Source: Acidobacteriota bacterium
GTDB lineage: Bacteria > Acidobacteriota > Thermoanaerobaculia > Gp7-AA8
Direction of reading: 5' to 3'
DNA length: 64,000 nucleotides
Assembly: GCA_019244185.1 (NCBI GenBank)
Contig: JAFATB010000022.1
Coordinates: forward strand, 384,001-448,000
Positions 49,209-61,600 of this stretch are shown one piece after another. The notes beneath the pieces are model-generated. The model was not told the origin of the DNA. It saw only the letters and a program-made list of their open reading frames with translations, and ran no database searches. Positions within the stretch are counted from its first letter, which is position 1. Every line of letters begins with the position of its first letter. The position numbers were made by a program, and so were the translations under genes.

Positions 49209-50924
49209 CTAGGGCGCGCCGATGGCGCGCCGCACCGCACGAATGTCGCCGTCCAGCGGCCGGTCGTAAAAGACCGGCCGCGCGGCGCTGCGGATCGTGA
49301 GGTACAACGCGCGCGTTCCTTCGCCGAGCTGCGCGGCGATCTCATTCGCGCGATCGCGCACCGCGGCTTCGAACTGCTGCGCCTGCGCGTTCGCCTCGGC
49401 TTCGTTCGCGAGCTTCGTCGGCTTGTTCGGATCGATGTCGAACGCCGCGCGCCATTCGACGGCTTGCGCCGCCGCGAGCAGCTCGATCGCGAGCACCGAC
49501 TGCACGTTCGACAGCACCGTGCGCAGTTTGCGCGCGGCGTGCGTCGACATCGACACGTGGTCTTCCGTGTTCGCGCCGGTCGGGATCGAGTCGACCGACG
49601 CGGGATGCGCGAGGACTTTATTCTCGGAGACGATCGACGCCGCGGTGTACTGCAGGATCATCAGCCCCGAATTCACGCCCGGTCGCGTGGTGAGGTTCTG
49701 CGGCAACCCGCGATTGTGATGGCCGTCGAGCATCAACTGCGTGCGGCGCTCGCTGATGTTCCCGAGTTCGTGAATGGCGATGGTGAGGAAGTCCGCCGCG
49801 AGCGCGAGCGGCTGACCGTGGAAGTTGCCGGCGGAGTACGCGAGCCGGCGATCGCCGTGATACCACTCCGGCCAGTTCGCGCGGAACTGCAGGTCGAAGG
49901 GGTCGCCTTCGTCGGGGAAGAACAGCGGATTGTCGGTCGCCGCGTTGAGCTCGCGCTCCGCGGTCGCGCGCACGAAGCGCAACGTGTCGCGCGTCGCGCC
50001 GTGCACCTGCGGCGCGCAGCGCAGCGAATACGGATCCTGCACCGCGCCCGCGCGCTCGACGAGCCGGCTGCCGGCGAGCAGCGCGCCGATGCGTTGCGCG
50101 CTCTCGATCTGTCCCGGATGTCCGCGCTCCGCGTGCACTTTCGGATCGAGCGCGCGCGTGCAGCCGGCGAGCGCTTCGAGCGACAGCGCGGCCGCGGCGT
50201 CGGCATGATCGGCGAGCCGCTCCGCGTCGTACACCGCGAGCGCGAGCATCGCCGCGGAGAAGTTTGCACCGTTGACGAGGCCGAGTCCTTCCTTGAAGGT
50301 CGGCTTCAGTTCATCCGCGGAGAACCCGAGCACCTCGGGCAGCTCGCGCGCGGAACGGAGCGTGCGGTCGGAGGTCGTGTAGAAGCGGCCTTCTCCAAGC
50401 AGCGTGGCGAAGAGATGCGATAGCGGACAGAGATCGCCGCTCGCCCCGACCGAACCGCGCAGCGGGACGAGCGGAATCACGCCGCGGTTGAGCATCGCCC
50501 GCACGATCTCGACGAGCCGCATGCGCACGCCGCTGCGACCTTTGAGAAACGCGTTGAGCCGCGTGGCGAGCGCGCCGCGGACGACTTCGGCGGGGTAGTA
50601 GTTTGCGAGATCGTCGGGATCGGAGTTGTCGCCGACGCCGACGGAATGCGAGAGCAGCAGGTTGCGCTGCAGCTGTTCGAGATCGTCCGGCGCGATCGGC
50701 TTGTCTTTGAATTCGCCGAAGCCGGTCGTGACGCCGTATTCGGAGATCTTGCCGCCCTGCGCGTATGCCTCGCGATGCTGCGCGACGACGCGCGCGATCG
50801 CGGCTTCGCTGCGGCGCACGGCGGGCTCGGTCTTCGGATCGATGTCGACCGTGACCGACGGATCGCGGGCGATCGATGCGAGCTGCTCGATCGTCAGCGA
50901 CGCGCCGTCGAGCACGACGTTCAT
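49209..50924 (-). CDS. hutH: Histidine ammonia-lyase (MIO family)
   Basis: YGVTTGFG, LLSH (His-type motif), GSVGASGDL (MIO), QDPYSLRC, GNFHG, NTEDHVSM; ATG overlaps the hisS stop. Confidence 0.85.
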   Translation of the reverse strand: MNVVLDGASLTIEQLASIARDPSVTVDIDPKTEPAVRRSEAAIARVVAQHREAYAQGGKISEYGVTTGFGEFKDKPIAPDDLEQLQRNLLLSHSVGVGDNSDPDDLANYYPAEVVRGALATRLNAFLKGRSGVRMRLVEIVRAMLNRGVIPLVPLRGSVGASGDLCPLSHLFATLLGEGRFYTTSDRTLRSARELPEVLGFSADELKPTFKEGLGLVNGANFSAAMLALAVYDAERLADHADAAAALSLEALAGCTRALDPKVHAERGHPGQIESAQRIGALLAGSRLVERAGAVQDPYSLRCAPQVHGATRDTLRFVRATAERELNAATDNPLFFPDEGDPFDLQFRANWPEWYHGDRRLAYSAGNFHGQPLALAADFLTIAIHELGNISERRTQLMLDGHHNRGLPQNLTTRPGVNSGLMILQYTAASIVSENKVLAHPASVDSIPTGANTEDHVSMSTHAARKLRTVLSNVQSVLAIELLAAAQAVEWRAAFDIDPNKPTKLANEAEANAQAQQFEAAVRDRANEIAAQLGEGTRALYLTIRSAARPVFYDRPLDGDIRAVRRAIGAP

Positions 50925-52345
50925 TCGAGCTCCGCGAGCATCCGGCGGATGCCGTCGACGAGCTCCGCGCGCGGCATCGTGACCTGCCCGGCGCGTTGCG
51001 CGAGGTACTCCTTGCGATCGGCGACCGGCTTCGCGCGCTCGCGTCCCGCGACCATGTCCTTCACGGTGACGATGCCTTCCGCGTGCTCGTTGCCGCCGTA
51101 CAGCAGCGCGAGCGGGATGTCGTACTGGTCGGCGTACTTGAGCTGCTTGCCGACGCCTTTCGCGGTGCCGAGGTAGAGCTCCGTCGGAATGCCGGCGCGG
51201 CGCAGCTCCCACGTCATGGCGAGATACTCCTGTTCGAGCGACTCGTCCATGCGCGCGACGAGCACGCGCGCGGTCGCTTTGCGCTTGCCGATTTTTCCGA
51301 GCTGCGTGAGCGCGGCGAGGAGACGATCGACGCCGATCGACGCACCGACGGCAGGGATCGATTGCCCGAGGAAGCGCATCACGAGATCGTCGTAACGGCC
51401 GCCGCCGAAGACGGAGCCGAACTGCGGCGCTTCCGTGAGAATCGCTTCGAACACCGGACCGGTGTAGTACGCGAGTCCGCGAGCGATCGAGAGATCGAGC
51501 GAGACGCGATCGTCGCCGTAGCCCAAAACGTAGAGGTTCGAGGAGATGCGCTCGATGACGTCGATCTGCGCGGGCGCGTTCTCGACGTGCGCGAACAACT
51601 CGCGCAGGCTGGTGAGCACTTCGCGGCGCGATTCGGATTTGATGGCGAGGAACTGTTCGATGCGATCGACCTGCTCGGACGTGAGGCCGACGCCGCGGAT
51701 GGTGTCTCCCGATTCGTCGACGTAGCCGTTCATCAGCTCGCGCCGCACTTTTTCGACTCCGACTTTGTCGAGCTTGTCGAGCACGCGGAAGACGTCGACG
51801 CCCTGCTCGGCGGAGATGCCCGCGAACGCGAGCAGGAGATTCAGCACCGCGCGGCTGGAGAAGCGGACGAGATAGCCGCCGACGTCGAGCGCGCCGAGGG
51901 TGTCGCACATGCCCGCGATGATCTCGGTGTCCGCGATCTCGCTCACGACGCCGACGGAGTCGAGATCGAACTGGATGAACTCGCGGTAACGCCCTTTGTC
52001 CGGCTTGTCCGCGCGCCACACCGGCGCAACCTGATAGCGGCGGAACGGCCGTGGCAACTCGCGCTCGCTGTACTGCGCGATGACGCGCGCGAGCGGCACG
52101 GTCAGATCGAAGCGCAATCCCAATTCCTCGTGCTCCGGATTCGTGACGCGAAAGATCGACTGCTGCGCCTCGGCGCCCGCGCTGCCCGACAGGACGTCCA
52201 GAAACTCGACCGCCGGCGTCGACAACGGCACGAAGCCGTAGTTCTCGTACACCCCGCGAATGGTGTCGATCATCTGCTGCCGCGCCAGCATCTGGTCGGG
52301 AAGCAGATCGCGAAGGCCGCGGGAAAGGCGGGGAGAGGTGGTCAT
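50921..52345 (-). CDS. hisS: Histidine--tRNA ligase
   Basis: RGLRD, LRFDLTVP, GRYREFIQFD, RGLAYYTG, GGGRYDDL, SIGVDR. Confidence 0.96.
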   Translation of the reverse strand: MTTSPRLSRGLRDLLPDQMLARQQMIDTIRGVYENYGFVPLSTPAVEFLDVLSGSAGAEAQQSIFRVTNPEHEELGLRFDLTVPLARVIAQYSERELPRPFRRYQVAPVWRADKPDKGRYREFIQFDLDSVGVVSEIADTEIIAGMCDTLGALDVGGYLVRFSSRAVLNLLLAFAGISAEQGVDVFRVLDKLDKVGVEKVRRELMNGYVDESGDTIRGVGLTSEQVDRIEQFLAIKSESRREVLTSLRELFAHVENAPAQIDVIERISSNLYVLGYGDDRVSLDLSIARGLAYYTGPVFEAILTEAPQFGSVFGGGRYDDLVMRFLGQSIPAVGASIGVDRLLAALTQLGKIGKRKATARVLVARMDESLEQEYLAMTWELRRAGIPTELYLGTAKGVGKQLKYADQYDIPLALLYGGNEHAEGIVTVKDMVAGRERAKPVADRKEYLAQRAGQVTMPRAELVDGIRRMLAELE

Positions 52346-52350
52346 GAGAA

Positions 52351-52466
52351 GCGGAATGTAGAACGCAGAACGCAGAACGCAGAATGAAGAAAGGGGAACG
52401 ATGCGCAGTCGCGGGGCGACGGCATTTCTACGTTCTTACTTCTGCGTTCTGCGTTCTTCATTCCGC
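52351..52466. repeat. Inverted repeat built from AGAACGC heptamers
   Basis: Arms 52351-52392 and 52425-52466 are near reverse complements. Confidence 0.85.
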
Positions 52467-52484
52467 CGCCGCCAGGCGGCGGCT

Positions 52485-52561
52485 TGGTACCGGGGGCCGG
52501 TCTCGAACCGGCGACCCCCAGATCCACAATCTGGTGCTCTGACCAACTGAGCTACCCCGGC
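52485..52561 (-). tRNA. tRNA-His(GUG), atypical: no G-1, G1:U72, A73, encoded CCA
   Basis: GCCGGGG TA GCTC AGTTGGTCA GAGC A CCAGA TTGTGGA TCTGG GGGTC GCCGG TTCGAGA CCGGC CCCCGGT A CCA. Confidence 0.96.
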
Positions 52562-52656
52562 ACTCGGGCGGGCATGATACTCGGGCACGCAGACGAGGGG
52601 AAGAGGCGCGCTCCGTGCCGTCCGCGCGTGAGAACGCCGCATCCCGCGAACGCATT

Positions 52657-52917
52657 TCAGACGAAGACGTATTCGTCCGCGGCCGCGCCACGCCCCGCGA
52701 ACGTGACCATCGCGTACTGGCGCCGCCGCCCGATGCCGTCGATCGCGGCGATGGTGTACGTGCTGCGCGCGCCCTCCAACAGGCCGGGGGGCGGATCGCC
52801 GGAGCCCACGACGACGATCCGTCCCGAAGAAATGCGCGCCCGCCGCGTACGCCATTGCACCGCGCTCTGGTCGTTGACGACCAGCACATCGCACAACCGG
52901 ACGGCGGGCTCGCTCAT
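52657..52917 (-). CDS. Small hypothetical protein
   Basis: 86-aa ORF downstream of the Crp gene with plausible composition. Confidence 0.4.
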   Translation of the reverse strand: MSEPAVRLCDVLVVNDQSAVQWRTRRARISSGRIVVVGSGDPPPGLLEGARSTYTIAAIDGIGRRRQYAMVTFAGRGAAADEYVFV

Positions 52918-53004
52918 GGTGAAGGCGACAATCTCCGAAGCGTGAGTCCTGCGCCCGCGATGATAGATCAACTTCTATCCGTCAAAATGTCCAAAATTGC
53001 ACAA

Positions 53005-53676
53005 TCAGTCACTATCCAGCAGCTGCAGCGCTTTCCGCCGATGCACGGCGATCGAGCGTCCCGCCGTCACGACGATGCCGCGTTTGCGGAAGCGCTGCAT
53101 GAATACGGTGATGCGCGGCCGCGTGGTGCCGACGATCTGCGAGAGCTCTTCCTGCGAGATGCGCAGGTCGACGCGCGCGTAGTCGCCGTCGATGCTGCCG
53201 AGTTTCTCCGCGATGCCGAGCAACACTTTCGCGAGCCGCTTCTCGGCGTCCATCGTGACGAGGTCGAACACCGCCACCTGCCGCTCGGCGAGCCGCAGCG
53301 CGAGGTGCCGCAACAGCATCTCCATCGCGGAGGCTTTCTCGACTTCCACGAGATAATCGCGCCGCAACACTTTGCGCACGAAGGTGCGCTGCATCGCGGA
53401 CGCGGTCTCGTTCCTGCGGCCGCTGTCGAGAAAACACGATTCGCCGAAGACATCGCCGGCGGCGTAAATCGCGAGCACGCAATCCTTGCCGCTGGCGGAA
53501 GACATGGACAGCTTCACCTGTCCCGACTCGATCAGGTACATGGCGTCGTCTTCGTCCCCCGTGGCATAGATCGCTTGCTGGGCATCAGCGCGCAAGCGCG
53601 CCACCGGCAACGACTCGCGATCGAAAATGTCGCGAAGGGACGGTAGCGAATGGGCGCGGCCGTCTTTGGAAGGCAT
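53005..53676 (-). CDS. Crp/Fnr-family transcriptional regulator
   Basis: MYLIESGQVKL, GDVFGE, ISQEELSQIVGTTRPRI; start uncertain. Confidence 0.9.
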   Translation of the reverse strand: MPSKDGRAHSLPSLRDIFDRESLPVARLRADAQQAIYATGDEDDAMYLIESGQVKLSMSSASGKDCVLAIYAAGDVFGESCFLDSGRRNETASAMQRTFVRKVLRRDYLVEVEKASAMEMLLRHLALRLAERQVAVFDLVTMDAEKRLAKVLLGIAEKLGSIDGDYARVDLRISQEELSQIVGTTRPRITVFMQRFRKRGIVVTAGRSIAVHRRKALQLLDSD

Positions 53677-53959
53677 CTGGAAAAATGCGTCGCGATCGTA
53701 GGCACCACCGAACGCTTCGTCTGTTCAGTATTGGACATGCCTTTCATGCCGTTGCGCATCACGGCTACGCCGCGGAGAAACTCGCGCAAGTTCGTGCGCA
53801 GTACGCATGCGCACTGAATCGACCGCGCCACGCGGCCGACGCGCACACCCGGAGCGGCATCGTGCACCATCACCAGACGGAGTGCCGCAACCCGCGCCGA
53901 TGCGGCTCACGATCCTGCGCACGCTCTGGCGTCGTGGCGCGCTTCGTGTGGTCTACGCG

Positions 53960-54142
53960 AGGGAGATACGACCGGGAGCGCCTCCGGCGGGCCGGCGCGG
54001 CCGGCAGCGCTGAGGGCTTAGCCAGTACGCACGTGCGGCTGCTGTCACCACGCTCGCCGCGACCGCACGTGCGGATAGGCTAGGCCCTCAGCGCTGTCGG
54101 CCGTGCCGGCCCGCCGGAGGCGCTCTGGGTCGTCCTCTCCCT
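53960..54142. repeat. Long imperfect palindrome (REP/MITE-like)
   Basis: GAGCGCCTCCGGCGGGCCGGC...CAGCGCTGAGGGC pairs with GCCCTCAGCGCTG...GCCGGCCCGCCGGAGGCGCTC; outer AGGGAGA/TCTCCCT. Confidence 0.85.
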
Positions 54143-55148
54143 ATGAAGCCACGAAGAGCGCGTCGGCGAACCACGCGCGGGCGTCGGTCCAGAGGTGCGC
54201 GATCGTGAAGCCGGAGGATTGGGCGAGGGCGGCGAGGGTGGACTCGTCGTGTTTGTAGGAGCTCTCGGTGTGGATCGTTTCGGCTTCGGCGAAATCGACG
54301 CTCAGATCGAGGGCGGCGAGGTGGACGCGTTGCGGTTGCGTGCTCACGAGGTGCATCTCGATGCGGCCGAGGGGCTCGTTGTAGAAGGCGCGGTGGGTGA
54401 AGCGGTCGAGCGCGAAGTCGGCGTTGAGTTCGCGGTTCATGCGCACGAGGAGATTCTTGTTGAAGGCGGCGGTGACGCCGAGGGGGTCGTCGTAGGCGGG
54501 TTCGAGAACGTTGCGCGGCTTGCGGAGATCGGCGCCGAGGAGCAGCGCGTCGCCGCGGGAGAGTGCGGAGCGGAGATCGCGGAGCATCGCGATCGCGGCG
54601 TCGGGATCGAGATTGCCGATGGTCGAGCCGAGGAAAAGGACCACGTTGCGGCCGCGATGGGGGCCAAGCATCGCGAGCGACGACGACGGCGACGCGAAGT
54701 CGGCGCGGACGGCGGTGATGCGGAGGTGCGGATAGTCGGCGAGCAGCTCGCGCGCGGAGCGTTCGAGCATCGACGCGTCGACGTCGACGGGAACGTATTC
54801 GAGCTCACGCTGGCGTTCCGTCAGGACGTCGAGGAGGATGCGCGTCTTGCGCGCGGCGCCGCTGCCGAGCTCCACGAGGCGCACCTGGGCGCCGAACGCA
54901 TCGCAGATTTCGCTCGCGTGCGCGTGCAGCACCTCGGCTTCCGCGCGCATCACGTAGTACTCGGGCAGAAAACAGATCGCGTCGAAGAGCGAGGATCCGA
55001 GCTCGTCGTAGAACCAGCGCGGCGGGAGCGACTTGCGGGACGCGGTGAGACCGCGGCGGACGTCGTCCGCGAAATCGCCGGCCGCGACGGCGCCGTGGCG
55101 CAGCGTGAACCGTGACGTGGGCGAGACCGGGACGGCGGCTGCGCACAT
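54141..55148 (-). CDS. egtD: L-histidine N-alpha-methyltransferase
   Basis: KSLPPRWFYD..GS.LF..IC.LPEYY, VELGSG, FLGSTIGN, AYDDPLGVTAAFNKN, IHTESSYK. Confidence 0.92.
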   Translation of the reverse strand: MCAAAVPVSPTSRFTLRHGAVAAGDFADDVRRGLTASRKSLPPRWFYDELGSSLFDAICFLPEYYVMRAEAEVLHAHASEICDAFGAQVRLVELGSGAARKTRILLDVLTERQRELEYVPVDVDASMLERSARELLADYPHLRITAVRADFASPSSSLAMLGPHRGRNVVLFLGSTIGNLDPDAAIAMLRDLRSALSRGDALLLGADLRKPRNVLEPAYDDPLGVTAAFNKNLLVRMNRELNADFALDRFTHRAFYNEPLGRIEMHLVSTQPQRVHLAALDLSVDFAEAETIHTESSYKHDESTLAALAQSSGFTIAHLWTDARAWFADALFVAS

Positions 55149-58692: not shown

Positions 58693-61600
58693 TCAGGGCT
58701 GAATGGGCTCGTAGTCCGGCAGCAGCACGACGTTCTGCTTGCGCACCGCGTCGCGGAACTGCGCGACGTCGGACGCGTACAGCTGGTTCAGATCGGCGAG
58801 CACGCTGCGCAGCAGCAGCTCCGCGTTCGCGAGATACGTCAGCTGCGCGGGCGTCGGCGCGTCCCACGACGACTGCATGGCGTTGATCGGATAGCCGATG
58901 CGGGACAGCACGTCGTTCTCGGCGACGAGGCCTTTCGTCTTCGGCGGCGTCCAGAGGCGGCGTTCGATGGCGTCGAGCTTCGCCTTCAGTTCCGTGGCCT
59001 GCTTCGTCAGCGGATCGGGCGGCGCGTTCGTCGCGGCGGCGTCGCGGTCGTCGTCCTTCTTCAGCTTCGCCGTGATCGCATCGAGATCGGCGCGCGTCTT
59101 CTGGATGCGCTCGACCGCGGCGGTCGCGGTTTCCTGCAGCGCGCCAGCGCGCACGATCGCGTCGTACTTTGCCTGCCGCACCGACTGCGCGATCGTCTCG
59201 CGCGGATCGGCGACGACGGTCACCTGCTGCTTCGCCTCGTTGCCGCGGAAGCGGATCGTGACGGTGTAGACGCCCGGCACGACTTCCGGACCTCCGCGCC
59301 GGCGGAACGATTCTTCTTCGCCCTCGCCGCGCTTCGGCTGCTTGAAGGCGTCGCGCGTGAGATCCCACGACGCGCGGTTCACGCCGAGGATCGCGGGACC
59401 TTTGAACTTGCGAATGACCTTGCCGGCGGCGTCGGCGACTTCGATGTCGACTTGCGGCGGCTTGTCGTCGCCGGCGCGTGTCGCCTGCGTTTGGCCTTGC
59501 GGCTTCTGCGCTTCCTTCTGTTCCTGCTTCGCCTTCTGCGCCTCCGGCTCCTTCGGCACGTCGCTCACGACCTGCGGCACGCCTTCGTCGGTCACGATCG
59601 CCTGCCGCGCGGCGTCGCGTTCCTTCTCCTTGCGCTCGCGTTCGCGTTCTTCCGTCGGATGCGGGATGCCGGCGACGTTGAGCGAGTAGGTGAGGAGCGC
59701 GCCGTACGGCTCGTTCTCGCCGCGGAATTCGGAGTCGCCGACGAAGCGCGAGCCTTCCTTCTGCCGCACGGTGTACTGCTGCGCGTCGGGCACGCTGAAG
59801 AAGTGCAGCGGCTCGGCGAGCACGGCTTTCGACATCGTGCGCAGCGGGCGGATGTCGTCGAGGATGTACGCGGCGCGCCCGTGCGTGGCGATGGCGAGAT
59901 CGTGATCGCGCGGATGGATCTTCAGTCCCTGCACGGACACCGTCGGGAAGCCGTGCTTCCACTTCGACCACGACTTGCCGCCGTCGAGGCTCGTCCAGAG
60001 ACCGAACTCCGTGCCGAGGAAGAGGAGATCGGCGTCGACCGGATCCTGTTCGATCGAGAGCGCGTAGCCCCAGAGGTCTTTCGTCGCCAGCGACGTCCAC
60101 GTCTTGCCGTAGTCGTTCGTGCGGAAGACGTACGGCGTCCAGTTCGAGCGGCGGTGATCGTCGAGGACGATGAACGCGGTGCCGGCGTCGTACGTCGAGG
60201 CCTTGATCTCCGGCACCCACGTGTTCGCGGGAACGCCTTTGAGATTCGCCTCGACGCTCGTCCAGTGCGCGCCGCCGTCGCGCGTCACCTGCACGCGGCC
60301 GTCGTCGGTGCCGGCCCAGACGACGTTGCGGTCGACGGGACTCGGCGCGAGCGCGATGATCGTCGTGAAGTTCTCCGCGCCGCTCGCGTCGAGCGTGAGG
60401 CCGCCGCTCTTGTCCTGCTGCTGCCACTCCTTGCGATTCGTCGTGAGATCGGGGCTGATCGTCTTCCACGTCTCGCCGCGATCGCTCGAGTGATGCACGT
60501 ACTGGCTGCCGAAGTAGACGCCGTTCGGATCGAACGGATCGACGGCGATGGCGGCGTTCCAGTTGAAGCGGATGGGCGTGTTCGGATCGAGTGGCGCGGG
60601 GCGGATGTCCTTCCGCTCGCCGGTGCGCAGGTTCCAGCGGACGATGTGCCCTTCCTGGCTCATCGCGTAGCCGACCATCGGATCGGTGGGAATCGGCGCG
60701 GTGCCGAAGCCGTCGCCGAACCCGATCTCCTGCCAGTCCCAGTTGCGCACGCCGGCGGTCTCCCACGTCGTGTTCGGCCCTTTCCACGAGCCGTTGTCCT
60801 GCATGCCGCCGTAGATGTTGTACGGCATCTCGTTGTCGACGGCGATGTGGTAGTACTGGCCGAGCGGCAGCGACGCGACGAAGCGCCAGCTCGTGCCACG
60901 GTCGCGCGATTCCGAGACGCCGCCGTCGTTGCCTTCGAGGATGTGGCCGCCGTCGTTCGGATCGATCCACATCGCGTGATGGTCGGGATGCACTTTCGAG
61001 TACGGCACGAGCGTCTTGAACGTGCGCCCGCCGTCGTTCGACACGCTGATCACCGAGTAGATGTTGTAGACGCGATTCGCGTCCTGCGGATCGACGCGGA
61101 GAAACGTGTAGTAGAACGGGCGATTGGCGATGTCGGTCTCCGTGTTGACCGCGGTCCATTTGCGACCGCCATCGTCGGAGCGCAGCAGCGCGCTCTTGTC
61201 GGCTTCGACGAGCGCGTAGACGATGCTCGGGTTCGAGCGCGCGATGGCGACGCCGATGCGCCCCAGCACACCTTTCGGCATGCCGTCGTCTTCGGTATAG
61301 CGCTTCCACGTTTCGCCGCCGTCGTACGAGACGTAGAGTCCCGAGCCGGGGCCGCCGGAGTTGAAGTACCACGGCCAGCGCCGGTACTCCCACATCGACG
61401 CGAAGAGCTTGTTCGGATTCGACGGATCGATGACCAGATCGGCGGCGCCGGTGCGGTCGTTCACGAAGAGCACTTTGCGCCAGCTCTTGCCGCCGTCGAC
61501 GGTCTTGAAGACGCCGCGGTCGGCGTTCGGCGACCACTCCTGGCCGAGCGCGGCGACCCAGGCGACGTTTGGATCGCGCGGATGCACGACGATGCGCGGA

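What the first reader, a model, noticed from the sequence alone, without database searches (positions are those of the whole stretch)
50921..52563. tRNA-His lacking G-1 (G1:U72, A73) linked to an alphaproteobacterial-type HisRS
Seen: the acceptor stem is GCCGGGG/CCCCGGT, the discriminator is A73 and the genomic -1 base is T, so the near-universal bacterial G-1:C73 identity element is absent. The hisS 140 nt downstream has motif-2 loop RADKPDKGRYREF, with Asp where E. coli has the C73-reading Gln (RHERPQKGRYRQF). It also has a GYVDESGDTIRGVGL insert and an extended C-terminal loop that I recall from Caulobacter/Rhizobiales HisRS. Known: G-1-less tRNA-His with U72/A73 and a matching HisRS is described for a subset of Alphaproteobacteria. 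Inference: a physically linked, possibly co-transferred non-canonical pair in an apparently acidobacterial host; I know of no report of this. Alternatively a U-1:A73 pair could be retained after processing.
Basis: partly seen in the sequence, partly recalled or inferred. Interest (0 to 1): 0.9.

Follow-up and report, generated by a model that had tools for sequence, protein, structure and literature searches.

The report
G-1-less histidine tRNA with matching synthetase
An acidobacterial genome carries, as its only histidine tRNA and only histidyl-tRNA synthetase, the rare pair that seems to do without the extra 5' guanine, a pair so far described only in some Alphaproteobacteria but found here in several other phyla as one linked gene cassette.

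Summary
The tRNA-His (52485-52561, minus strand) has T at -1, G1:U72, A73 and an encoded CCA. hisS starts 139 nt downstream. Its motif-2 loop is RADKPDKGRYREF, with Asp116 where E. coli has Gln.

Both genes are single-copy in a 98.9%-complete genome. That genome has bacterial RNase P RNA and no Thg1 homologue. The host is an acidobacterium; the nearest named HisRS come from Thermoanaerobaculia.

The HisRS falls in a strongly supported clade (100/100) with the G-1-independent enzymes of Rhizobiales, Rhodobacterales, Caulobacterales and SAR11, and shares two clade-specific insertions with them. It is not nested among the alphaproteobacterial enzymes. It sits in an Acidobacteriota-dominated branch, while the alphaproteobacterial enzymes branch among planctomycete and Lernaella sequences.

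In 301 sampled Acidobacteriota genomes, 14 carry a U72/purine-73 tRNA-His. These include all 13 genomes with a clade HisRS, and none of the 14 has a canonical C72/C73 gene. The same pair occurs in Planctomycetota (9 of 201 sampled genomes), Zixibacteria and Krumholzibacteriota. In 37 of 38 loci holding both genes, the tRNA lies directly upstream of hisS.

I found no report of this pair outside Alphaproteobacteria. The mature 5' end and the charging specificity remain untested.

The parts
52485..52561 (-). tRNA-His(GTG) gene with G1:U72, C2:G71, C3:G70, A73, encoded CCA and a 9-nt D-loop. It is the only tRNA-His in the genome.
52562..52562 (-). Position -1 of the tRNA-His gene is T, so no G-1 is templated. 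T could pair with A73.
52468..52483 (-). Short G+C hairpin directly 3' of the tRNA, with no U-run after it.
   Evidence: fold; one search found no terminator-like site
52351..52466 (.). 116-nt imperfect hairpin built from (GAACGCA)n arms, lying between the tRNA and hisS. It is one copy of a REP-like repeat dispersed through the genome and is not specific to this locus.
   Evidence: -77.3 kcal/mol, z -9.96; 329 BLAST hits in the genome; 52 and 55 exact copies of the two 17-mers
50921..52345 (-). hisS, histidine--tRNA ligase, 474 aa, of the G-1-independent clade. It is the only hisS in the genome.
51977..52015 (-). Motif-2 loop RADKPDKGRYREF (residues 111-123). Asp116 stands at the position of the E. 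coli Gln.
51683..51727 (-). Clade-specific insert GYVDESGDTIRGVGL (residues 207-221) in the insertion domain.
50969..51022 (-). Clade-specific 18-residue insert ADRKEYLAQRAGQVTMPR (residues 442-459) in the C-terminal anticodon-binding domain.
49209..50927 (-). Histidine ammonia-lyase gene directly downstream of hisS and overlapping its end. This neighbour is conserved in relatives that carry the pair.
   Evidence: NF006871, 547 bits against a cut-off of 524

Best explanation
This is a working histidine identity pair that does not use G-1, and it is the organism's only means of making His-tRNA.

Inferred steps:
- The tRNA-His precursor is cut by the ordinary RNA-based RNase P at the usual -1/+1 site.
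- This gives a 7-bp acceptor stem that starts at G1, is topped by a G1:U72 wobble and is followed by A73-CCA.
- The class II HisRS encoded 139 nt downstream charges this tRNA by reading the GUG anticodon, U72 and A73, and ignores the missing G-1. This is what was measured for the Caulobacter crescentus enzyme of the same clade.

Shown here: gene content, clade membership, shared inserts, and perfect co-occurrence of tRNA type with enzyme type. Processing and charging are inferred.

Evolutionary reading: the two genes form a tRNA-His-then-hisS cassette, often followed by hutH. The cassette is inherited within part of the Acidobacteriota. It belongs to a clade spanning several phyla, from which the alphaproteobacterial pair also descends.
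For: (1) tRNA features: T at -1, G1:U72 and A73.

(2) Copy number: one tRNA-His and one hisS above the cut-off in a genome that is 98.92% complete with 1.54% contamination.

(3) No route to G-1: no Thg1 N- or C-terminal domain at E<=0.1. RNase P RNA type A is present at 284 bits.

(4) Phylogeny: in the 43-row tree the clade [13 Acidobacteriota + 6 Alphaproteobacteria] has 100/99 support. In the 74-row tree the 56-row clade has 100/100.

(5) Shared derived characters: no Gln in the motif-2 loop and two inserts.

(6) Co-occurrence: the U72+purine-73 pattern is found in 14 of 301 Acidobacteriota genomes. These are all 13 genomes with a clade HisRS plus G022, whose contig ends just after the tRNA. 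The canonical C72+C73 pattern is found in 225 of 301 genomes and in none of the 14. The backwards-read control pattern gave 0 matches in both searches.

(7) Other phyla: in the 6 genomes from other phyla with a clade HisRS (2 Zixibacteria, 1 Phycisphaerae, 3 other Planctomycetota), the only pattern match has T72 and A73.

(8) Published biochemistry: C. crescentus HisRS fully charges a transcript lacking G-1. Adding G-1 does not help. U72C and the anticodon mutants lose 91- to 1000-fold (PMC3064791; abstract and Table 1 passages read).
Against: - No RNA or enzyme data exist for this organism. The sequencing-run tool was unreachable.
- The motif-2 loop reads Asp-Lys (KPD-KGR), not the Gly-Pro (KPG-PGR) of the alphaproteobacterial enzymes and many other clade members.
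- The extra D-loop base is C, not the U20a that mattered in the Caulobacter transplantation experiment.
- Losing Gln is not diagnostic on its own. A separate KPG[RK]G group in Myxococcota and Planctomycetota lies outside the clade. The 2 of its 4 genomes in which a tRNA-His was found have C72/C73 tRNAs.
- The -1 base is Watson-Crick complementary to base 73 in 27 of 37 distinct U72-type tRNA-His sequences (my count; in four of the 27 I shifted the ARAGORN start by one base). So a retained N-1 is not excluded.
Confidence: 0.8

Rival explanations
1. The T at -1 is kept. RNase P cuts one base early, as it does on E. coli pre-tRNA-His, and the mature tRNA has an 8-bp acceptor stem with a U-1:A73 pair that serves as the identity mark.
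For: Among 37 distinct U72-type tRNA-His sequences, the -1/73 combination is T/A in 25 and C/G in 2 (G266 and L182). That is 27 of 37 Watson-Crick complementary (my count; in four of the 25 T/A cases I shifted the ARAGORN start by one base). In those same four sequences ARAGORN itself started the tRNA at the T (L219, L220, L221, L225).
Against: - Complementarity between -1 and 73 is common for ordinary tRNAs of this genome: 22 of 42 non-His tRNAs with encoded CCA. Among those with A73, 10 of 22 have T at -1; among those with G73, 9 of 13 have C at -1.
- Close relatives of the two C/G cases have G/A (L012, L126, L164). SAR11 tRNAs show A, C or T at -1.
- A U:A pair stacked on a G:U wobble is a weak helix end (inference).
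- Adding a -1 base gave the Caulobacter enzyme no benefit.
Confidence: 0.08
2. G-1 is added after transcription opposite A73, as in eukaryotes, by an enzyme unrelated to Thg1 or missed by the search. The HisRS would then still depend on G-1.
For: A73 is the eukaryotic discriminator. The HisRS is closer to eukaryotic and archaeal enzymes than to the E. coli enzyme (human cytoplasmic HisRS E 1.6e-58 against E. coli 1.5e-23).
Against: - Neither Thg1 domain was found at E<=0.1 in a 98.9%-complete genome.
- The motif-2 loop lacks the Gln.
- The enzyme sits in a clade whose tested member ignores G-1.
Confidence: 0.04
3. The pair is a recent lateral import from an alphaproteobacterium, or lies on a contaminating alphaproteobacterial contig in the assembly.
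For: Among named records in the plasmid collection, the best matches are Rhodobacterales and Rhizobiales at 38-45% identity.
Against: - The window's HisRS lies in a 14-row clade (99/98) made of 11 Acidobacteriota and 3 unnamed metagenome proteins.
- All 16 alphaproteobacterial rows form their own clade (99/98) elsewhere in the tree.
- Identity to alphaproteobacterial enzymes is only 32-45%.
- hisS G+C is 0.66 against 0.669 for the window. The contig is 480 kb with the genome's G+C.
- Family members share the pair and the hutH neighbour.
Confidence: 0.03

Closest known systems
The G-1-lacking tRNA-His/HisRS pair of the Rhizobiales-Rhodobacterales-Caulobacterales-Hyphomonadaceae ('RRCH') Alphaproteobacteria and most SAR11, characterised in Caulobacter crescentus (PMC3064791, PMC3937112)
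   Same: - No templated G-1, with G1:U72, C3:G70, A73 and a 9-nt D-loop.
- The HisRS is in the same clade (100/100).
- The same two inserts are present.
- Gln is lost from the motif-2 loop.
- The tRNA lies directly upstream of hisS, as in SAR11.
   Different: - The host phylum is Acidobacteriota.
- The loop reads KPD-KGR (Asp-Lys) instead of KPG-PGR (Gly-Pro).
- The extra D-loop base is C, not U.
- The downstream neighbour is hutH, whereas the two annotated Rhodobacterales records have hisZ-hisG.
- The enzyme is in a separate branch of the clade.
The canonical bacterial system: templated G-1 paired with C73, read by HisRS with Gln in the motif-2 loop (E. coli; Thermus complex, PMC4357726, seen in a search listing only)
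   Same: A class II HisRS fold family (TIGR00442), the GUG anticodon and an RNA-based RNase P.
   Different: G-1, C72, C73 and the Gln are all absent here. E. coli-type enzymes match only at about 1e-23.
The eukaryotic system (A73, with G-1 added by Thg1) and the G-1-independent HisRS of some protists (PMC4338351 abstract; PMC9976931 passage)
   Same: The A73 discriminator. The HisRS is nearer to eukaryotic and archaeal enzymes than to the E. coli enzyme. As in those protists, there is no Thg1.
   Different: The gene context is bacterial. The clade is sister to bacterial enzymes from Acidobacteriota and Bacteroidota, not to eukaryotic ones in the trees built here, but no eukaryotic sequence was in those trees.
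The (8/4) tRNA-His lacking G-1 with A73, found in alphaproteobacterial phages (PMC5389517, passages read)
   Same: No G-1, and A73.
   Different: The tRNA here has the ordinary 7/5 acceptor/T-stem arrangement and is chromosomal.

Membership tests
G-1-independent tRNA-His/HisRS pair (Caulobacter/RRCH type) | The tRNA-His gene has no templated G at -1 | tested here: met
   T at -1
G-1-independent tRNA-His/HisRS pair (Caulobacter/RRCH type) | A73 discriminator with a G1:U72 top pair | tested here: met
G-1-independent tRNA-His/HisRS pair (Caulobacter/RRCH type) | C3:G70 and a 9-nt D-loop with an extra U20a (as listed in PMC3064791) | tested here: inconclusive
   C3:G70 and the 9-nt D-loop are present, but the extra base is C (AGUUGGUCA). 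Family members G056, G070 and G083 have T there.
G-1-independent tRNA-His/HisRS pair (Caulobacter/RRCH type) | The HisRS motif-2 loop lacks the Gln that reads G-1:C73 (it is Gly in RRCH) | tested here: met
   Gln is absent and Asp116 stands in its place. Gly is not present.
G-1-independent tRNA-His/HisRS pair (Caulobacter/RRCH type) | The HisRS carries the clade's unique insertions | tested here: met
   Both inserts are shared with Paracoccus, Sinorhizobium and Caulobacter and are absent from canonical rows.
G-1-independent tRNA-His/HisRS pair (Caulobacter/RRCH type) | The HisRS groups phylogenetically with the RRCH enzymes | tested here: met
   100/99 and 100/100
G-1-independent tRNA-His/HisRS pair (Caulobacter/RRCH type) | The mature tRNA starts at G1 and the enzyme charges it without G-1 | not testable with these tools
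Canonical bacterial G-1:C73 histidine identity | Templated G-1, C73 and G1:C72 | tested here: not met
   (no C72/C73 pattern in G000)
Eukaryote-like A73 with Thg1-added G-1 | A Thg1 or Thg1-like guanylyltransferase is present | tested here: not met
   PF04446 and PF14413 gave no match at E<=0.1. The Methanosarcina control genome matched both families above the cut-off.

The most novel reading that the evidence does not exclude
The G-1-less histidine identity set is not an invention of the Alphaproteobacteria. On this reading it is an older, mobile two-gene module (tRNA-His directly upstream of hisS, often followed by hutH) that arose outside that class. It replaced the native pair in scattered lineages of Acidobacteriota, Planctomycetota, Zixibacteria and Krumholzibacteriota. 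The ancestor of the RRCH/SAR11 Alphaproteobacteria acquired it once, from a donor like a planctomycete or Lernaella. If so, the trait used as a unique alphaproteobacterial synapomorphy would be a lateral import, and it would be a natural example of an orthogonal tRNA/synthetase pair spreading as a cassette.
Probability: 0.5. Interest if true: 0.75.

Novelty: new member of a known kind. Interest (0 to 1): 0.65.

Why it matters
G-1 on tRNA-His is one of the most nearly universal tRNA identity marks. Its loss in bacteria is described as confined to one alphaproteobacterial clade, as likely to have arisen only once (PMC3937112), and, in that paper, as caused by a eukaryote-derived HisRS. A 2023 review still lists only Alphaproteobacteria and some protists (PMC9976931, passage read).

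Here the same tRNA/enzyme co-variation appears in Acidobacteriota (14 of 301 sampled genomes) and Planctomycetota (9 of 201). It also appears in single genomes of Zixibacteria and Krumholzibacteriota. The alphaproteobacterial enzymes are nested among these.

Three things follow.
- The origin of the alphaproteobacterial pair needs a new account.
- The trait loses weight as a phylogenetic marker, for instance in placing SAR11.
- It shows how a translation identity rule can be exchanged between phyla when the tRNA and its synthetase travel together.

It also provides new natural HisRS/tRNA-His pairs that may be orthogonal to the E. coli pair, with variant loops (Asp-Lys) open to testing.

Tried and rejected
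- Convergence. I considered that the acidobacterial pair arose independently. I rejected this because the enzymes form one clade with the alphaproteobacterial ones and share two inserts.
- Gln loss as a sole marker. I considered using loss of Gln alone. I rejected this because the KPG[RK]G group has Gly at that position, lies outside the clade, and goes with C72/C73 tRNA-His in the 2 of its 4 genomes where the tRNA was found.
- BLAST census. A BLAST search of the phylum sample with the 101-nt tRNA region mostly hit other tRNAs and could not be used for a census. I replaced it with two IUPAC patterns.
- Pattern limits. These patterns miss tRNA-His genes that depart from TAGCTCA...GAGY...YTGTGR...TTCRA. 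62 of 301 genomes matched neither pattern, including all 16 genomes of family f39.
- Promoters and terminators. The simple scan found none between 52300 and 53100, so whether the tRNA and hisS are co-transcribed is open.
- Organism names. Cluster look-ups named only 7 of the 30 proteins asked about.
- Papers. Ardell & Andersson 2006 and Wang et al. 2007 are not held. What I say of them comes from citing papers or from recall. Supplementary files were not consulted.
Expression and 5'-end evidence could not be sought.
- Structure tools. I did not use structure or complex prediction, because neither would settle the open question.
- Unpublished genomes. G024, G049 and G152 are among the 225 canonical matches and in the tallies. 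No statement about the G-1-less type rests on them.
Full report
**Observation.**
ARAGORN finds a tRNA-His(GTG) at 52485-52561 on the minus strand. Rfam's tRNA model matches it end to end at 68.9 bits. On that strand the gene reads ...gagt|GCCGGGG...CCCCGGT-A-CCA. The base before G1 is T, the top pair is a G1:U72 wobble, C2:G71 and C3:G70 follow, the discriminator is A73 and CCA is encoded. The D-loop has nine bases.

The ORF 50921-52345 (minus, 474 aa) starts 139 nt downstream. It is a histidine--tRNA ligase: TIGR00442 at 350.1 bits against a cut-off of 286.75.

**The pair is the only one in the genome.**
The window lies on a 480-kb contig of a 5.30-Mb, 26-contig genome that is 98.92% complete with 1.54% contamination.
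- ARAGORN predicts 55 tRNAs genome-wide and one tRNA-His.
- The hisS model finds one gene above the cut-off. The three weaker matches lie in 657-aa and 590-aa frames and are far below it.
- Neither Thg1 domain (PF04446, PF14413) matches at E<=0.1, while a control archaeon matches both above the cut-off.
- A type-A RNase P RNA is present at 284 bits.
- None of 42 other tRNAs with an encoded CCA has C73 or G at -1.

**Host.**
The 119 nearest database proteins other than the window's own are 79-84% identical. Where a source names them, they are called Thermoanaerobaculia bacterium or Acidobacteriota bacterium. A genome of the same family (G083) is the record titled 'Acidobacteria bacterium isolate Centralia_MAG_134'. 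hisS has the window's G+C (0.66 against 0.669).

**What kind of HisRS it is.**
Against solved structures, the best matches are 6nhi (1.6e-62), 3net (6.8e-61) and human cytoplasmic HisRS (1.6e-58). E. coli and Thermus enzymes reach only about 1e-23.

In the plasmid and chromid collection, the best tblastn hits are Rhodobacterales and Rhizobiales at 38-45% identity over 97-99% of the query. Bacteroidota follow at 33-35%.

I aligned these with E. coli K-12 HisRS taken from its RefSeq record. The motif-2 loops read as follows.

| Source | Motif-2 loop |
|---|---|
| E. coli | RHERPQ-KGRYRQF |
| Bacteroidota | RADRPQ-KGRYREF |
| Six Alphaproteobacteria | RNEKPG-PGRFRQF |
| The window | RADKPD-KGRYREF |
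| Other acidobacterial relatives | KPG-PGRF or KPD-PGRF |

Two inserts mark the window's enzyme and its relatives from Alphaproteobacteria, Planctomycetota, Zixibacteria, Krumholzibacteriota and Lernaella. One is G[YR]xD-xSGDxxxG at residues 207-221. The other is an 18-residue insert at residues 442-459 in the anticodon-binding domain. Both are absent from canonical acidobacterial and Bacteroidota enzymes, from a KPG[RK]G group and from E. coli. The SAR11 row lacks the second insert.

**Trees.**
A 43-row maximum-likelihood tree (LG+C20+F+G4) gives a clade of 13 Acidobacteriota and 6 Alphaproteobacteria at 100/99.

A 74-row tree (LG+G4; its bootstrap had not fully settled, so values are rough) added named sequences from other phyla and 16 representatives from a 1.84-billion-protein library. 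It shows:
- a 56-row clade at 100/100;
- all 16 alphaproteobacterial rows, SAR11 included, as one group (99/98), sister to Candidatus Lernaella (99/98);
- that group sitting inside a 27-row clade (100/98) whose earliest branches are Planctomycetota;
- the window's enzyme in a different 14-row clade (99/98) of 11 Acidobacteriota and 3 unnamed metagenome proteins.

The base of the 56-row clade is unresolved. Its sister relation to canonical Acidobacteriota and Bacteroidota enzymes is weak (92/74). No eukaryotic or archaeal sequence was in the 74-row tree.

In a FastTree of 140 of the 150 best library representatives (ten shorter than 380 aa were dropped) plus the 43 references, 30 representatives fall in the clade (support 92).

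**Co-occurrence of tRNA type and enzyme type.**
I searched 301 Acidobacteriota genomes, drawn evenly from the phylum, with two patterns.
- A tRNA-His pattern ending in U72 plus a purine at 73 matches 14 genomes.
- The same pattern ending in C72 C73 matches 225 genomes.
- No genome matches both, and 62 match neither.
- The backwards-read control patterns gave no hits.

The 14 are exactly the 13 genomes whose HisRS is at least 45% identical to the window's and falls in the clade, plus G022. G022 is 83% complete, and its locus ends 96 nt after the tRNA.

G216 belongs to the same family as the window. It has a canonical g-1/C72/C73 tRNA-His and only a distant HisRS, 30% identical to the window's. 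Most other families of the same class are canonical. The distribution is therefore patchy.

**Other phyla and the cassette.**
By record title they are 99 Pseudomonadota, 6 Acidobacteriota, 6 Planctomycetota, 2 Zixibacteria, 2 Myxococcota, 1 Krumholzibacteriota and 4 unassigned. HisRS ORFs were found in 117 of the 120.

I ran whole-genome pattern searches in 2 Zixibacteria, 1 Phycisphaerae and 3 other Planctomycetota genomes. Each has a single match, with T72 and A73. A sample of 201 Planctomycetota genomes holds the U72 type in 9.

In 37 of 38 loci that hold both genes, the tRNA-His lies upstream of hisS on the same strand. The gap is usually 4-381 nt, and two SAR11 loci have gaps of 1.4 and 2.4 kb. 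The 38th is an ARAGORN false positive inside hisS. These loci come from Acidobacteriota, Planctomycetota, Krumholzibacteriota, unassigned bacteria, SAR11 and two uncultured Alphaproteobacteria. None of the 17 loci of canonical acidobacterial hisS holds a tRNA-His.

A histidine ammonia-lyase gene follows hisS in the window, in 11 acidobacterial relatives and in 2 planctomycete loci.

**The -1 base.**
Among 37 distinct U72-type sequences, the -1/73 combinations are T/A in 25, C/G in 2, G/A in 5, A/A in 4 and C/A in 1 (my count; in four sequences I shifted the ARAGORN start by one base).

This looks like a conserved pair. But 22 of 42 ordinary tRNAs of this genome are also complementary at -1:73. 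It is recalled knowledge, not tested here, that bacterial RNase P favours U at -1. I therefore read the T as an ordinary leader base and give its retention about 8%.

**Literature.**
Searches for tRNAHis + G-1 + Acidobacteria (2 papers), tRNAHis + G-1 + Planctomycetes (2) and HisRS + Acidobacteria (3) found no report of this pair outside Alphaproteobacteria. Two other searches also found none.
- PMC5370408 (passage read) notes that a later study did not support that transfer.
- PMC9976931 (2023, passage read) lists only Alphaproteobacteria and protists.
- The two founding papers are not held, and subscription journals are not searched. Prior mention elsewhere therefore cannot be excluded.

**Mechanism and limits.**
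Shown here: the gene content, the clade, the inserts, the co-variation and the linkage.

Inferred from the Caulobacter work (PMC3064791): RNase P cuts at +1, and the enzyme reads the anticodon, U72 and A73 without G-1.

Two differences from Caulobacter leave room for a variant recognition mode: the Asp-Lys loop and the C at the extra D-loop position.

RNA evidence could not be sought because the sequencing-run tool was unreachable four times.

Noticed in passing
window 52351-52466: A 116-nt hairpin with (GAACGCA)n arms lies between the tRNA-His and hisS (-77.3 kcal/mol, z -9.96). It is one copy of a REP-like repeat dispersed through the genome: 329 BLAST hits, and 52 and 55 exact copies of the two 17-mers. 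Rfam gave only spurious matches to microRNA-precursor families.
   Followed up: partly
window 49209-55148 (minus strand): The neighbourhood is histidine-themed: EgtD (L-histidine N-alpha-methyltransferase, 366 bits), a Crp/Fnr regulator, tRNA-His, hisS, then histidine ammonia-lyase (547 bits) overlapping the end of hisS. The hisS-hutH adjacency recurs in 11 acidobacterial and 2 planctomycete loci.
   Followed up: partly
G034, G064, G077, G113, G125, G137, G149, G171, G181, G191, G201, G211, G231, G241, G261, G271 (family f39): All 16 sampled genomes of family f39 matched neither tRNA-His pattern. Their HisRS has Ala at the Gln position (RADRPA-RGRF). Family f55 has the same loop and does match the canonical pattern. 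The f39 tRNA-His was not retrieved.
   Followed up: no
L177, L186 (Myxococcota); L190, L218 (Planctomycetota); L226, L227: A separate HisRS group has KPG[RK]GRFREF, with Gly at the Gln position, and lies outside the G-1-less clade. The planctomycete G313 has a canonical g-1/C72/C73 tRNA-His. The myxobacterial G311 has T at -1 with G1:C72 and C73, so G-1 is not templated there. No tRNA-His was retrieved for the other two genomes of the group, G305 and G312.
   Followed up: partly
L006 (G040:C101): Two tandem copies of the G-1-less tRNA-His, 224 nt apart, lie upstream of hisS in a genome of the same family.
   Followed up: no
L010 (G266), L182: Two acidobacterial tRNA-His genes of the U72 type have G73 with C at -1. 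Their closest tRNA relatives (L012, L126, L164) have A73 with G at -1.
   Followed up: partly
G216 (L094, L095): A genome of the window's own family keeps a canonical tRNA-His (g-1, C72, C73) and a distant HisRS that is 30% identical to the window's and 28% to the E. coli enzyme. The exchange of pairs is therefore patchy even within one family.
   Followed up: partly
window 58885-58971: ARAGORN calls an 87-nt 'tRNA-Glu(ctc)' without an encoded CCA. Several similar over-long calls occur elsewhere in the genome. It is probably a false positive.
   Followed up: no
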